A DNA stretch of 50,359 bases from a virus (Duplodnaviria > Heunggongvirae > Uroviricota > Caudoviricetes): the IMG/VR virus record IMGVR_UViG_3300033062_000614; one strand, given 5' to 3'. A program made the position numbers and the translations under genes. Below are positions 37,616 through 49,303 of the stretch, one piece after another (position 1 is the first letter of the stretch; every line of letters starts with the position of its first letter). Under the pieces are notes generated by a model. That model saw nothing but the letters and a program-made list of their open reading frames with translations, did no database searches and was not told the DNA's origin.

Positions 37616-37649
37616 AGAAGGGCGGTCTGATGTTCTAGACCGCCCTTCT
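37616..37649. terminator. Bidirectional intrinsic terminator at the convergence of the two arms
   Basis: 13-bp perfect stem AGAAGGGCGGTCT/AGACCGCCCTTCT with an 8-nt loop and T-rich flanks on both strands. Confidence 0.85.
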
Positions 37650-40407: not shown

Positions 40408-40682
40408 TTTGCCTCCATATGTTTTCTTCGTGTTATCCAACTCTTAATTCCCGTTCCTTTGCGGGAAGGTTTAGGCTCTAGTATTTTTACTAAGCCTTTA
40501 AGATAAACAAGCGGTATCTTGGCTCCCCTTTCCATAATCCACTTGACGTCAGCCTCTTCGCTTAGTCCTGGAACAGCTCCTACAAGGGCGTCCTTTTCTC
40601 CTGTGATTTCGTCCTCAACTGCAACGATACCAATACAACCTACTCCCATAGGGCTGAACCAAACTCTGTCTAATACTTTCAT
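40404..40682 (-). CDS. Hypothetical protein
   Basis: Coupled ORF with an SD. Confidence 0.55.
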   Translation of the reverse strand: MKVLDRVWFSPMGVGCIGIVAVEDEITGEKDALVGAVPGLSEEADVKWIMERGAKIPLVYLKGLVKILEPKPSRKGTGIKSWITRRKHMEAK

Positions 40683-41203
40683 TTAGCCTCCTTCTTTACT
40701 TGGTTAAAGTTATCAGGTCTTTTCTCCATTTCTTTTCTTACTTGGTCTAAAGAGATAGGAGAGAACTTCCAACAATCTACTCCCACATCAAAGCTCTTAC
40801 CCCAAGGCTCTATCATACCGTGCGAGTGCCCATATAAGTGCCAAGAGCCATAATGAGACCTTGACCAAACCCGCATAGCATAGTGGCACAAGACTATATT
40901 TACATCTTTGAGGTCTATGATAGCTTTTATGTCTTCAAACAAATGAAAATATGGCATAACATTAGAATCGTGGCTACCTATAGTAAGATATTTCTTACCA
41001 TTCAACCTTTCTATAATATACCTAAGCTCCCCAAAGCCAAAGTCTCCTAGGTGGTAGATTGTATCAGTAGGTTTGACTTTCTTGTTCCAGTTGTCTATCA
41101 TAATCTCATTCATCTCAAGGGCGTCCGAGAAAGGGCGGTTGCAGAACTTGATAATGTTGCCGTGGTTGAAGTGAGTATCAGAAGTAAACCAGATATTGTT
41201 CAT
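40679..41203 (-). CDS. Calcineurin-like metallophosphoesterase
   Basis: SDTHFNH, HLGDF, GSHD (usually GNHD), LCHY, HLYGHSH and DVGVD. Confidence 0.9.
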   Translation of the reverse strand: MNNIWFTSDTHFNHGNIIKFCNRPFSDALEMNEIMIDNWNKKVKPTDTIYHLGDFGFGELRYIIERLNGKKYLTIGSHDSNVMPYFHLFEDIKAIIDLKDVNIVLCHYAMRVWSRSHYGSWHLYGHSHGMIEPWGKSFDVGVDCWKFSPISLDQVRKEMEKRPDNFNQVKKEAK

Positions 41204-41209
41204 ACATCC

Positions 41210-41371
41210 TCACTTTCTTTTGACTGAATCTGAAATATCTAAAGCTATACAGTATCCTACCAACATAGCAAGACCTACTTTGGCGCCAGAAGACATAGGT
41301 TGTGCAATCTTCCAATGGTCTGATAACAAAACTAGAAACATAAGCCCTAGAATAAAAACAACTAATCTCAT
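41210..41371 (-). CDS. Small two-TM membrane protein (53 aa, absent from the ORF track)
   Basis: MRLVVFILGLMFLVLLSDHW...GLAMLVGYCIALD...; ATGA coupling to the TIR-like gene. Confidence 0.55.
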   Translation of the reverse strand: MRLVVFILGLMFLVLLSDHWKIAQPMSSGAKVGLAMLVGYCIALDISDSVKRK

Positions 41372-41691
41372 TTGACCTCCTTTAGAAGCTTTGAGGTTGC
41401 TTCTTTGATAGAGTTAGGATTGTTTCTCTCAAAAAACTCCCATTTATCCACAACCTTCATAAGCTTCGGACTAGGCATCATACCTTCAGCTATCAATAGG
41501 TATATAGGCTTGTTGAGAGCTATAGCAAGAGTAAGTTGAAGTAGGCATAAGGGAGACTTCTCGTAGTTCTCTGTAAACAAGCTAACAAAGACTTCAGAAG
41601 ACTTGATGCCTTTGAGTTGTTTCTCGACAAACTTCTGAAGCTCTTTGCTTGCATCGTGGACTCCTCCATCTACATAATTGATATCATCCAT
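41368..41691 (-). CDS. Stand-alone TIR-like mini-domain with Gln at the catalytic Glu position
   Basis: GIKSSEVFVSLFTENYEKSPLCLLQLTLAIALNKPIYLL aligns without gaps to the TIR betaC-alphaC-betaD consensus AI..S.V.I.L.S.NY..S.WC..EL..A....KPI.PV. Confidence 0.6.
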   Translation of the reverse strand: MDDINYVDGGVHDASKELQKFVEKQLKGIKSSEVFVSLFTENYEKSPLCLLQLTLAIALNKPIYLLIAEGMMPSPKLMKVVDKWEFFERNNPNSIKEATSKLLKEVK

Positions 41692-41923
41692 TTCTTCTCC
41701 TTTTCCCCATATCCATAGTCCTTCTCCAAACCTCAGCTTTAGCCAATAAATACTTTTTCTTCCAGACTTTGTTTATTGACCTTAGCCAAAATTGGCTATT
41801 CTTTCCATAAGGAGTAAGTATGGAATCATCTGATTTTCCTAACATATCCTTATAGATACTTTGGAGAGCCTTATCATTGAGACAAGATAACCTTAACCTT
41901 CTTCGAATAGTTCTATATCTCAT
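41684..41923 (-). CDS. Hypothetical basic protein
   Basis: Coupled ORF, Arg/Lys-rich. Confidence 0.5.
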   Translation of the reverse strand: MRYRTIRRRLRLSCLNDKALQSIYKDMLGKSDDSILTPYGKNSQFWLRSINKVWKKKYLLAKAEVWRRTMDMGKRRRNG

Positions 41924-43134
41924 TTATCCTCCCTCACTCTCTTAAAGACTGGGAAACGCATACTACCGTCTTTTGTAATCTCTTGAGCTTTTACTTCAAT
42001 GATTTTTCCTATCATTGACTTTCTATGCTTCCAAAATTCAACTCTTTGGACATCCTTATACCCGCCCCCAACATCTACTAAAGTGCCATTAGGAAGCTTG
42101 CAAACAAAAGCTCCAAGCATTCCAACATACTTGCCCTCCCCTTCTTTGAAATCTACTATAGGCAAGTCTTTGGTAATTACGAATTTGAGTTTCAACCAAT
42201 CCCTAGTCCTGTCGAAAATATACAACGAATTGAGATTTTTGGCTACTGCACCCTCATAACCTTCTTTGAGGTAGGCTTTAGCCTTATCCCAAGCCTCAGC
42301 TGTATTTCTAACCTTAACATTGGGCACTAGCGATACGGAGGAGGTGTCTTTGGGAAAGAGCCTTTGTAATATATCCAACCTCTTTTCGAGCGTCCTAGAG
42401 CCTTGTTTAGAACGCCACTCCTCTAAAGACAAGAAGTCGAAAACATAGAATTTCAAAGTCTTGGAAGTCTTGCTAGTCTTTGAGGATTTTACAACAGACA
42501 AGGACTCATTCCAGTCCTCTCCATAAATCTCCCCATCAAGGACTCCCTCTTTTACAACCTTTTGGACTTCTTGACCTATGTGGTCAATGTTGAACATCTC
42601 CTTACCGTTTCGGGAGACCGCTCCAAAGAATTGACCGCCTTCGAAGATTAGGACGCACCTTAGCCCGTCATACTTAGGCTGGATAATCCAATTGGAGTCA
42701 AGAATATCTGTTTGGTCAATCTCCTCACAAGCCTCAAGCTCGAAGGTAGGTATCAGTTTTGGGAAGACTTTGTTAATACTAATCTCTGATACACCTATGC
42801 GAAGTTTCTTCTCCCACATTCCTTTTAGCCAGCGGTTTACTAAAGGGTCTTCGGTTGAGACCGTCATAGCTACTTCAAGCCTAGCTTTGTCTCCTGTAAT
42901 CTTTCGGCTGTTGAGCCTCTTCCGTAAATCGAGAAGGGAGTCAAGTCTAGGGATAGGATACTTCTCTGGCAAGGGTTTTACCTTGCCTACTCCATAGGTA
43001 AGCATAGGGCTTAATGCGGTCTCAAAATAGAACTTGGCGAACTCATCGTTTTTGAGTTTACCTAGAAGCTCTATCTTGAGGTTGGTTCCAGAGGTCTCCG
43101 AGATTGCTTCGAGTATTTTAAGGGTTTTGTTCAT
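41920..43134 (-). CDS. lig: ATP-dependent DNA ligase
   Basis: Motif I KYDGLR, LDGEI, FYVFD, EGAVAK, WLKLK, and an OB-domain ending SMRFPVFKRVREDK. Confidence 0.95.
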   Translation of the reverse strand: MNKTLKILEAISETSGTNLKIELLGKLKNDEFAKFYFETALSPMLTYGVGKVKPLPEKYPIPRLDSLLDLRKRLNSRKITGDKARLEVAMTVSTEDPLVNRWLKGMWEKKLRIGVSEISINKVFPKLIPTFELEACEEIDQTDILDSNWIIQPKYDGLRCVLIFEGGQFFGAVSRNGKEMFNIDHIGQEVQKVVKEGVLDGEIYGEDWNESLSVVKSSKTSKTSKTLKFYVFDFLSLEEWRSKQGSRTLEKRLDILQRLFPKDTSSVSLVPNVKVRNTAEAWDKAKAYLKEGYEGAVAKNLNSLYIFDRTRDWLKLKFVITKDLPIVDFKEGEGKYVGMLGAFVCKLPNGTLVDVGGGYKDVQRVEFWKHRKSMIGKIIEVKAQEITKDGSMRFPVFKRVREDK

Positions 43135-48430: not shown

Positions 48431-49303
48431 TTAACATTGCTTAGCCTCCTTGTAGTCCCACTCTTTCCAAAATATGTTCCAGTGGTCTACGTTAGTATAG
48501 GTTAGAGTATAGGCTCTTGCCATAAAGAGAGCTAAGTCCTTATCAGGCTTTTTGCTTCTTAGCCAATTAAGATACGCCCACCTAGTGCGTTGAAATCTAT
48601 AGGCGTGCTGGAACTGCTCTTCATCAAGAGTTACAGCTCCAAAGTTAGGCATCTGGGCGTCACAAGATAACTGCAATAACATTTGTCCAAGCATAACCTC
48701 TTCTTGCCAGCATAAGATATGCTTGATAGGCACTATACCTTTAGACAAAGTCTTGAGCGGTCTGATGTGGGTAAAGAGAACATCCTCACCAGTTGGAGCC
48801 CATATATCGTAATACGCCCAATCGAACTTGTCTTTGGTATATTTAAGGTAATCAAAGAGGTCAGCCTCAACGATTTCAGCCTTGGTAGTCTTGAGATGCT
48901 TCCAGACTAGCTCAATAACCTCCTTAGATTTCTCAATTACCTTAATAGAGGTTACGCTCTCCTTGAGGTCTAACATCTTTGTTACATAGCCTATACCTAG
49001 TCCTCCAATTAGAACAGAGCCTTTACACTTTTTAACTACGTGCTTATGACTCTCTTGTTCTTGCGGGATATCCGACATCCAAATACCGCCATCTTCTAGT
49101 AACTGATGAAACTTTACACTACTTACCAAAAGGGCGGTTGTAGGTCTTTTCCTTTTTTTGCCCATTACTCGGTTAAAGATTGCCTCCCTGCTAGAGATTA
49201 CATCAATTGTAGAACCTGCAGGAAAGACCTTGTGCCGTATTTCCCACTTGCCTACCTTATTGGGTGGGATATTGATAGGCGTGTCGAATAGATACCTTTT
49301 CAT
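48431..49303 (-). CDS. Class I SAM-binding protein, spermidine-synthase-like methyltransferase fold
   Basis: WMSD.PQE, VLIGGLGIGY, VIEKS.EVI, EADLF and FDWAYYDIW. Confidence 0.75.
   Translation of the reverse strand: MKRYLFDTPINIPPNKVGKWEIRHKVFPAGSTIDVISSREAIFNRVMGKKRKRPTTALLVSSVKFHQLLEDGGIWMSDIPQEQESHKHVVKKCKGSVLIGGLGIGYVTKMLDLKESVTSIKVIEKSKEVIELVWKHLKTTKAEIVEADLFDYLKYTKDKFDWAYYDIWAPTGEDVLFTHIRPLKTLSKGIVPIKHILCWQEEVMLGQMLLQLSCDAQMPNFGAVTLDEEQFQHAYRFQRTRWAYLNWLRSKKPDKDLALFMARAYTLTYTNVDHWNIFWKEWDYKEAKQC

What the first reader, a model, noticed from the sequence alone, without database searches (positions are those of the whole stretch)
41368..41691. Phage-encoded stand-alone TIR-like mini-protein with the catalytic Glu replaced by Gln: candidate decoy or inhibitor of TIR-based immunity
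Seen: the 107-aa ORF carries GIKSSEVFVSLFTENYEKSPLCLLQLTLAIALNKPIYLL, which aligns without gaps to the TIR betaC-alphaC-betaD consensus. Where TIRs have WCxxE, it has LCLLQ (codon CAA, + strand 41536-41538, one base from GAA). The betaA-alphaA part appears to be absent. It sits in the early-type arm near the ligase and phosphoesterase. Established: the TIRs of Thoeris ThsB, TIR-SAVED/TIR-STING CBASS, Pycsar and SPARTA need this Glu and oligomeric assembly for NADase or signal synthesis, and E-to-Q/A mutants are inactive. Inference: a catalytically dead, truncated TIR could cap or poison host TIR assemblies or bind their nucleotide product, unlike Tad1/Tad2 sponges. Caveat: the nucleoside 2-deoxyribosyltransferase fold is similar and is an alternative assignment; it would also lack its catalytic Glu.
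Basis: partly seen in the sequence, partly recalled or inferred. Interest (0 to 1): 0.78.

Follow-up and report, generated by a model that had tools for sequence, protein, structure and literature searches.

The report
Phage half-TIR/NDT pseudo-enzyme family
This phage gene belongs to a widespread, unstudied viral family that keeps only the back half of a TIR/nucleoside-glycosidase fold and lacks the catalytic pocket, so it is probably a binding protein, possibly a decoy against bacterial NAD-destroying immunity, but nothing yet shows its target.

Summary
Observation confirmed. The 107-aa ORF is a real gene in a widespread phage family (PHROG 18163; 244 hits at 50% clustering, mostly stand-alone ~100-aa proteins). 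Members are the back half of the TIR/NDT fold: betaA, alphaA, betaB and the BB loop, which build the catalytic pocket, are missing (0 of 149 carry a TIR betaA-like motif). Gln52 is not private: 143 Gln, 90 Glu among 236 rows, about 22 switches on the tree (at least 4 supported). Glu goes with Lys/Arg/Gln/His four residues upstream (the TIR Trp site), Gln with an aliphatic residue: 18 of 24 independent pairs agree, none disagree. The pair stays neutral or partnered, so Glu members are probably dead too; truncation, not Glu-to-Gln, is the key feature. TIR versus NDT is unresolved: sequence profiles favour TIR_2, the AlphaFold model favours DNPH1/BcmB/MilB. Cultured actinophage members are labelled 'deoxycytidylate deaminase', probably wrongly. 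No conserved neighbour or missing-half gene was found. Non-enzyme about 0.85; decoy of host TIR/NDT effectors about 0.35, with no direct evidence. No TIR-fold anti-defence protein appears in the 2025-2026 surveys I searched, and the scan had not reported this family on other DNA.

The parts
41368..41691 (-). 107-aa half-TIR/NDT protein (alphaB-betaC-alphaC-betaD-alphaD-betaE-alphaE), member of PHROG 18163
   Evidence: (AF2 pLDDT 91, pTM 0.77; 3 strands, 4 helices)
41697..41702 (-). Shine-Dalgarno-like AAGGAG, 5 nt before the ATG
   Evidence: sequence read directly
41599..41652 (-). Long N-terminal amphipathic helix (residues 14-31), equivalent to alphaB; no betaA, alphaA or betaB precedes it
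41596..41598 (-). Ser32, conserved in 92-93% of both clades (TIR-like position before betaC)
41548..41550 (-). Leu48, the TIR Trp site (Glu-4); covaries with residue 52
41536..41538 (-). Gln52 at the catalytic-Glu position; Glu or Gln in 233 of 236 family rows
41506..41553 (-). Very hydrophobic alphaC (47-58) followed by the near-invariant Lys61-Pro62; probable oligomer or partner interface (inferred)
   Evidence: mean hydropathy of Glu+1..+7: family 2.5, NDT 1.3, TIR_2 0.4
41684..41845 (-). Upstream overlapping 53-aa ORF (79 aa from 41923); no family; not a TIR/NDT N-half; not a conserved neighbour
41210..41371 (-). Downstream ATGA-coupled 53-aa hydrophobic ORF; not a conserved neighbour
41920..43134 (-). 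ATP-dependent DNA ligase (context only)
   Evidence: phrog_114, E 4e-105
40679..41203 (-). Calcineurin-like phosphoesterase (context only)
   Evidence: phrog_547, E 4e-52

Best explanation
A non-catalytic phage accessory protein derived from the TIR/NDT (TIR-DrHyd-SLOG) fold that works as a decoy subunit. SHOWN: it lacks betaA, the AA loop, alphaA, betaB and the BB loop family-wide; it keeps alphaB-alphaC, the CD loop and betaD-betaE-alphaE; residues 48 and 52 stay a neutral or partnered pair; alphaC is very hydrophobic. INFERRED: having no pocket it cannot cleave NAD+ or nucleotides (about 0.85). It docks onto a host TIR-fold or NDT-fold immune enzyme whose active site needs two subunits. On a TIR filament it would accept the host BB loop on its EE surface but offer no BB loop or alphaA to the next subunit, capping the assembly. 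On an NDT-type dimer (for example a retron Ec86-like effector) it would pair through alphaC and give a defective heterodimer. Either way NAD+ depletion or signal synthesis is blunted.
For: Pocket residues come from betaA, the AA and BB loops, alphaB and alphaC; the active site spans a BB-loop/EE interface, and an intact BB loop is required (10.1101/2022.05.07.491051). NDT sites are also formed by two monomers (PMC10913048). The truncation is family-wide: median position of Glu/Gln is residue 45 and 0 of 149 have a betaA-like motif. Position 52 is Gln in 81% of the non-actinophage clade, with 22-24 switches and tight 48/52 covariation (p 7.6e-6; no other position below 0.15). The loci fetched are phage or phage-like small-ORF clusters of 32-75% GC. 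Only 1 of 401 actinobacterial genomes searched carries it, in a prophage-like region. No partner gene or N-half was found nearby, which fits a protein acting on a host target.
Against: No direct evidence of any target. No recurring defence- or NAD-related neighbour. The best-conserved residues (Ser32, Gly54, Ala56, Lys61, Pro62, Gly70, Pro74, Ala81) look structural, and no conserved EE-surface patch stands out. A hydrophobic alphaC could simply bury in a homo-oligomer. TIR families diverge widely, so one fold-mimic binding them across many host phyla is not obvious. Known ThsB inhibitors (Tad3-7) are described as inserting loops or helices into the active site, not as TIR-fold mimics (PMC13728456).
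Confidence: 0.35

Rival explanations
1. Non-catalytic phage protein with a role unrelated to TIR/NDT immunity: a stable alphaC-mediated homo-oligomer that binds some other host or phage protein. Glu/Gln52 with residue 48 is then only a packing or hydrogen-bond constraint.
For: Conservation is concentrated in turn and packing residues. The 48/52 charge compensation is what a partly buried helix position gives. Neighbours are ordinary phage replication and recombination genes with no common theme.
Against: Position 52 is held to Glu/Gln in 233 of 236 rows at the ancestral catalytic site across very divergent phages, tighter than packing alone usually needs. The fold's main known conflict roles are NAD/nucleotide immunity (PMC9503650).
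Confidence: 0.3
2. Nucleotide sponge: a homo-oligomer in which a second subunit replaces the lost betaA side and rebuilds a ribose-binding cleft around residues 25, 46, 48 and 52, holding ADPR-type signals or a nucleoside monophosphate without turnover.
For: Residue 25 aligns with the NDT acid Asp62 and residue 52 with Glu88. In the Gln clade these are Ser/Asn (63%) and Gln, and residue 46 is Asp/Glu in 76%. Glu-to-Gln NDT mutants crystallise with substrate bound (PMC10913048). Small phage sponges are common (PMC13712596). Inactive members of this fold act as nucleotide sensors (PMC9503650).
Against: The phosphate- and ribose-binding loop after strand 1 is absent. The TIR Trp is lost. Residue 25 is hydrophobic in the actinophage clade and residue 48 is variable, so the would-be cleft is not conserved across the family.
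Confidence: 0.2
3. An active or split enzyme (NDT/DNPH1-like nucleotide N-glycosidase), as the GenBank labels of actinophage members imply: Glu members cleave nucleotides after oligomerising or pairing with a separately encoded N-half.
For: Best structural matches are BcmB, DNPH1 and MilB (Z 8.4-8.8, rmsd 2.0-4.1 A over 85-92 residues). Actinophage members keep Asp46 and Glu52 at 97-98%. CtNDT E88Q retains weak activity.
Against: betaA with the catalytic Tyr7 and Ser10 is absent. No N-half ORF was found in the family loci or this genome, with narrow HMMs. Glu is paired with Lys/Arg in 58 of 59 actinophage rows and switches to Gln repeatedly. Nothing in the fold searches supports a deaminase.
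Confidence: 0.12
4. Decaying pseudogene or private mutation.
For: Truncated and lacking the catalytic residue.
Against: 244 relatives, most of the same ~100-aa length, with a conserved core and a confident fold; intact start and RBS.
Confidence: 0.02

Closest known systems
PHROG 18163 (unknown function): Microbacterium phage Megan gp71, Mycobacterium phage Blessica gp111 (Corndogvirus), JustASigh gp93, Arthrobacter phage KellEzio gp74
   Same: Same family: HMM E 5e-24 to 8e-18, same 103-112-aa length and truncation, TM 0.76 to the Megan model.
   Different: That clade keeps Glu52 with Lys48 and Phe49. Its GenBank labels (deoxycytidylate deaminase, nucleoside deoxyribosyltransferase) are not backed by an intact active site. 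I found no experimental study.
Bacterial TIR_2 NADases (PF13676; AbTir, SPARTA TIR-APAZ, ThsB, SARM1-type)
   Same: alphaB-to-alphaE topology (Z 7.2-7.6); conserved Ser before betaC, CC-loop spacing, Cys at Glu-3; profile match 94% (E 9e-8) for the Gln clade; 14 full-length TIR proteins among the top 150 phmmer hits.
   Different: No betaA, alphaA, betaB or BB loop; no Trp at Glu-4; Gln in most members; alphaC far more hydrophobic; 3-stranded sheet; viral and stand-alone.
NDT / nucleoside 5'-monophosphate N-glycosidases (PF05014; CtNDT, DNPH1/Rcl, MilB, BcmB) and the NDT-like retron Ec86 effector
   Same: Best structural matches (Z up to 8.8, rmsd about 2 A over 85 residues); small residue at Glu+2, Asp at Glu-6, Lys-Pro after alphaC, hydrophobic alphaC; best PDB profile hit is CtNDT E88Q (E 0.003).
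   Different: No betaA Tyr or first loop; general-acid Asp replaced by Ser/Asn or a hydrophobic residue; weaker profile match (17-23%, shallow template).
Phage anti-Thoeris proteins Tad1/Tad2 (sponges) and Tad3-Tad8 (direct binders)
   Same: Small stand-alone phage proteins; the proposed role is the same.
   Different: None is described as having a TIR/NDT fold in the surveys searched (PMC13728456, PMC13712596, 10.1101/2025.06.06.658234), and none came up in the PDB fold searches.

Membership tests
TIR NADase (PF13676/PF01582/PF08937) | Five-stranded flavodoxin-like sheet betaA-betaE with five helices | tested here: not met
   Model has 3 strands and 4 helices; alignments start after betaB; 0/149 with a betaA-like motif
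TIR NADase (PF13676/PF01582/PF08937) | Catalytic Glu on alphaC | tested here: not met
   Gln52 here; Gln 143, Glu 90 in the family rows
TIR NADase (PF13676/PF01582/PF08937) | Trp/aromatic at Glu-4 and a BB loop | tested here: not met
   Leu48; no Trp at this site in any Glu or Gln row; BB loop absent
TIR NADase (PF13676/PF01582/PF08937) | Score above the Pfam cut-off | tested here: not met
   20.4 bits against 28; 25 of 117 members hit TIR_2 at E<=0.01
TIR NADase (PF13676/PF01582/PF08937) | NAD+ hydrolysis on oligomerisation | not testable with these tools
   Needs an assay
NDT / DNPH1-type N-glycosidase (PF05014 clan) | betaA Tyr and first loop; general-acid Asp on alphaB; nucleophile Glu | tested here: not met
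   betaA absent; residue 25 is Gln here (Ser/Asn or hydrophobic in the family); Gln52
NDT / DNPH1-type N-glycosidase (PF05014 clan) | C-terminal half of the fold, with small residue at Glu+2 and Lys-Pro after alphaC | tested here: met
   Z 8.7, rmsd 2.0 A over 85 residues; Gly/Ala/Ser at 54 in 97-100% (Thr in this protein); Lys61-Pro62 98-100%
NDT / DNPH1-type N-glycosidase (PF05014 clan) | Obligate dimer with a shared active site | not testable with these tools
   Needs SEC-MALS or a structure
TIR-DrHyd-SLOG Rossmannoid clade (PMC9503650) | [quoted passage not shown] | tested here: met
   Asp/Ser46 and Glu/Gln52 align with both TIR and NDT; the clade's five-stranded core is incomplete
PHROG 18163 | Profile match over most of the length | tested here: met
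   Query E 1.4e-4 over 69 residues; 10/10 actinophage-type members, best E 3e-35; the query clade's HMM finds Megan gp71 at 5e-24
Phage anti-TIR defence proteins (Tad class) | Rescues phage from a TIR-based system by binding the enzyme or its signal | not testable with these tools
   Needs plaque assays and pull-downs

The most novel reading that the evidence does not exclude
A widespread phage family of 'half-TIR' decoys that cap or poison host TIR (or NDT) NADase assemblies by fold mimicry: a dominant-negative counter-defence distinct from sponges, signal-degrading enzymes and active-site-plugging Tad proteins, testable at once in cultured actinophages.
Probability: 0.33. Interest if true: 0.87.

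Novelty: new variant of a known kind. Interest (0 to 1): 0.62.

Why it matters
TIR and DrHyd domains were reported as under-represented in viruses (PMC9503650). This is a viral family of hundreds of clusters that falls below the Pfam thresholds because the front of the fold is gone. If it inhibits host TIR/NDT NADases, it is an anti-defence mechanism by fold mimicry that I did not find described for phages, and a tool for capping TIR assemblies. Even if not, it is a clean case of a stably truncated pseudo-enzyme with a coevolving neutralised catalytic site, and it questions the 'deoxycytidylate deaminase' label on cultured actinophage genes. Those phages (Corndogvirus, Kelleziovirus, Megan) make knock-out and expression tests possible in laboratory strains.

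Tried and rejected
Homodimer prediction with the family alignment: no verdict (score 0.12, mark 0.42); not used as evidence. The cap left no job for a TIR or NDT partner. Folding the natural tandem P0146 to see an alphaC interface: low confidence in the second repeat (pTM 0.54), uninformative. Word-indexed protein search, tblastn of phages and IMG/VR scan with the single query found nothing; only the full phmmer found the family. Search for longer fused forms found none (weak evidence). Split-enzyme idea: HMMs for the TIR, ThsB and NDT N-halves found nothing in the family loci or the genome; the HMMs are small actinobacterial sets whose only control was their own training loci, so this is not proof. 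Conserved gene neighbours: none beyond local synteny. Independent-pair test on starred branches only had 4 pairs and no power; the 24-pair test uses unsupported branches too. Promoter scan at chance level. GTDB scan with the Gln-clade pattern found none, so hosts of that clade are unknown. No Tad or sponge structure in the fold searches (absence is not exclusion). Literature searches for a phage TIR decoy returned nothing relevant; the Tad3-8 paper itself was not held. Loci from unpublished genomes G006 and G053 were left out of all reference sets; they may enter only the negative tally.

Full report
OBSERVATION. The ORF is at 41368-41691 on the minus strand, 107 aa, with AAGGAG 5 nt before the ATG. 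Residue 52 is Gln (CAA, + strand 41536-41538). The frame is open 27 codons further upstream, without a start codon or a betaA-like motif. The same protein was called on a contig of another JGI record. It lies between an ATP-dependent DNA ligase and a calcineurin-like phosphoesterase, in a 107-kb, 49%-complete virus record. By eye the record's structural genes look T4-like, in line with an earlier scan note; I did not test this with profiles.

FAMILY. phmmer against 1.84 billion representatives gave 244 hits. Of the best 150, 118 are stand-alone proteins of at most 135 aa, 18 are family members with unrelated extensions or a tandem repeat, and 14 are large proteins with full-length TIR domains. 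One member led to cultured actinophage genes: Megan gp71, Blessica gp111, JustASigh gp93 and KellEzio gp74, labelled deoxycytidylate deaminase or nucleoside deoxyribosyltransferase. They score E 5e-24 to 8e-18 against the family HMM, and their clade corresponds to PHROG 18163. Further viral loci came from IMG/VR and metagenomes. The contexts seen are phage or phage-like small-gene clusters. Seven GTDB contigs carry the Glu type, but only 1 of 401 actinobacterial genomes searched, in a region with phage replication, methylase and ParB genes.

ANATOMY. AlphaFold2 with 117 sequences gives a confident model (pLDDT 91, pTM 0.77): helix 14-31, strand 35-39, helix 47-58, strand 63-68, helix 75-80, strand 83-87, helix 92-104. 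Structural matches begin after betaA-alphaA-betaB of the target. In the family the Glu/Gln lies at median residue 45, and 0 of 149 proteins have a TIR betaA-like motif before it, against 15 of 24 reference TIRs. In NADase TIRs the Glu pocket is built from betaA, the AA and BB loops, alphaB and alphaC, and the site is completed by a neighbour through the BB-loop/EE interface (10.1101/2022.05.07.491051). In NDTs Tyr7 and Ser10 contact the Glu and the sugar, and the site needs two monomers (PMC10913048). The truncation therefore removes the pocket whichever residue is at 52 (inference from those structures).

TIR OR NDT. Not resolved. For TIR: Pfam TIR_2 is hit by 25 of 117 members against 17 for NDT; profile-profile 94% (E 9e-8) against 17% for the Gln clade, with a shallower NDT template; language-model neighbours are TIR_2; Ser32, the CC-loop spacing and Cys49 are TIR-like. 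For NDT: Foldseek and VIA-align rank BcmB, DNPH1 and MilB first (Z 8.7-8.8, rmsd 2.0-2.7 A over 85-89 residues) against Z 7.6, rmsd 3.6 A for the best TIR; the best PDB profile hit is CtNDT; Gly/Ala/Ser at Glu+2, Asp at Glu-6 and the hydrophobic alphaC (2.5 against 1.3 for NDT and 0.4 for TIR_2) are NDT-like. The actinophage clade is ambiguous (36% against 23%). Z values near 8 are modest, and a shared fold shows no function. The safe filing is a truncated member of the TIR-DrHyd-SLOG clade (PMC9503650), which fails the defining tests of both enzyme families.

THE GLN. Among 236 rows (a few near-duplicates; the sample depends on my queries) position 52 is Gln in 143, Glu in 90 and something else in 3: 81% Gln outside the actinophage clade, 97% Glu inside it. 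The tree needs 22-24 Glu/Gln changes, at least 4 forced by well-supported branches; it is poorly resolved and unrooted, so direction is unknown. Position 48, the TIR Trp site one helical turn away, tracks it. Outside the actinophage clade Glu goes with Lys/Arg/Gln/His in 25 of 31 rows and Gln does so in 11 of 141 (Fisher p 4e-16); inside it, 58 of 59 Glu rows have Lys/Arg. On 24 independent pairs of the best tree, 18 go the same way and none the opposite way (median p 7.6e-6); no other position reaches p<0.15. The simplest reading is that an unpartnered carboxylate is not tolerated there. That argues against a working nucleophile even in Glu members, and for a buried or interface position. It does not show a substrate trap. 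Glu-to-Gln alone is also not a sure kill in this fold: CtNDT E88Q keeps about 1/50 efficiency.

CONTEXT. No neighbour recurs beyond local synteny. Pfam scans of 208 nearby ORFs gave no family more than three times. No N-half gene was found nearby or in the genome (limited sensitivity). HD, phosphoesterase and SLOG genes flank two homologs, too few to count as linkage.

MECHANISM. Non-enzyme: about 0.85. What it binds is open. I rank first (0.35) a decoy subunit: the parts lost are those a TIR donates for catalysis and for extending an assembly (BB loop, alphaA), and the parts kept are the acceptor EE surface and alphaB/alphaC/CD; an NDT-type alphaC heterodimer with an effector such as that of retron Ec86 (PMC13276650) is the parallel version. 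All of this step is inference. Rivals: an unrelated binding role (0.30), nucleotide sponge (0.20), active or split glycosidase (0.12), pseudogene (0.02).

KNOWN AND NOVEL. The family exists in PHROGs without a function and in GenBank under doubtful enzyme names. Reviews of October-November 2026 and the EVADES survey of 268 anti-defence proteins, searched by keyword, mention no TIR- or NDT-fold anti-defence protein; most subscription papers could not be searched. The scan's earlier notes hold other Gln-TIRs but not this family. Verdict: new variant of a known fold, real and widespread, function untested; interest 0.62, 0.87 if the decoy role is shown.

Noticed in passing
L138:5001-5585 (P0146): Natural tandem: a full Glu-type copy fused to a second copy that starts only at alphaC and has His at the catalytic site. 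Neighbours include HD_4, PcfJ, tRNA-synt_1c, HD, metallophosphoesterase and cpYpsA (SLOG) genes.
   Followed up: partly
L009:2971-3291, L010:2974-3306, L012:2956-3294: Cultured actinophage members are annotated 'deoxycytidylate deaminase'; the fold is half-TIR/NDT, so the label is probably wrong.
   Followed up: yes
L008:7580-7999: The closest homolog (P0002, 56% identity) sits directly behind an HD_4 (SpoT/Mesh1-like) hydrolase gene on a 97-kb contig.
   Followed up: no
L003:8558-9934: An AcrVA2-like gene (PF26125) lies directly downstream of a Gln-type homolog, with ArdcN/MPTase-PolyVal 7 kb away: the one locus with an anti-defence-type neighbour.
   Followed up: no
L011:1262-1833: Mycobacterium phage JustASigh carries an annotated BrnT-like toxin/CopG antitoxin pair about 1.2 kb upstream of its family member.
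   Followed up: no
window 41210-41371 (-): 53-aa hydrophobic ORF with two apolar stretches, ATGA-coupled to the gene; no family match.
   Followed up: no
window 37616-37649: Perfect 13-bp hairpin between the convergent plus-strand and minus-strand gene arms; probable terminator.
   Followed up: no
window 48431-49303 (-): 290-aa methyltransferase-like gene (phrog_15480, E 1e-19) in the same arm.
   Followed up: no
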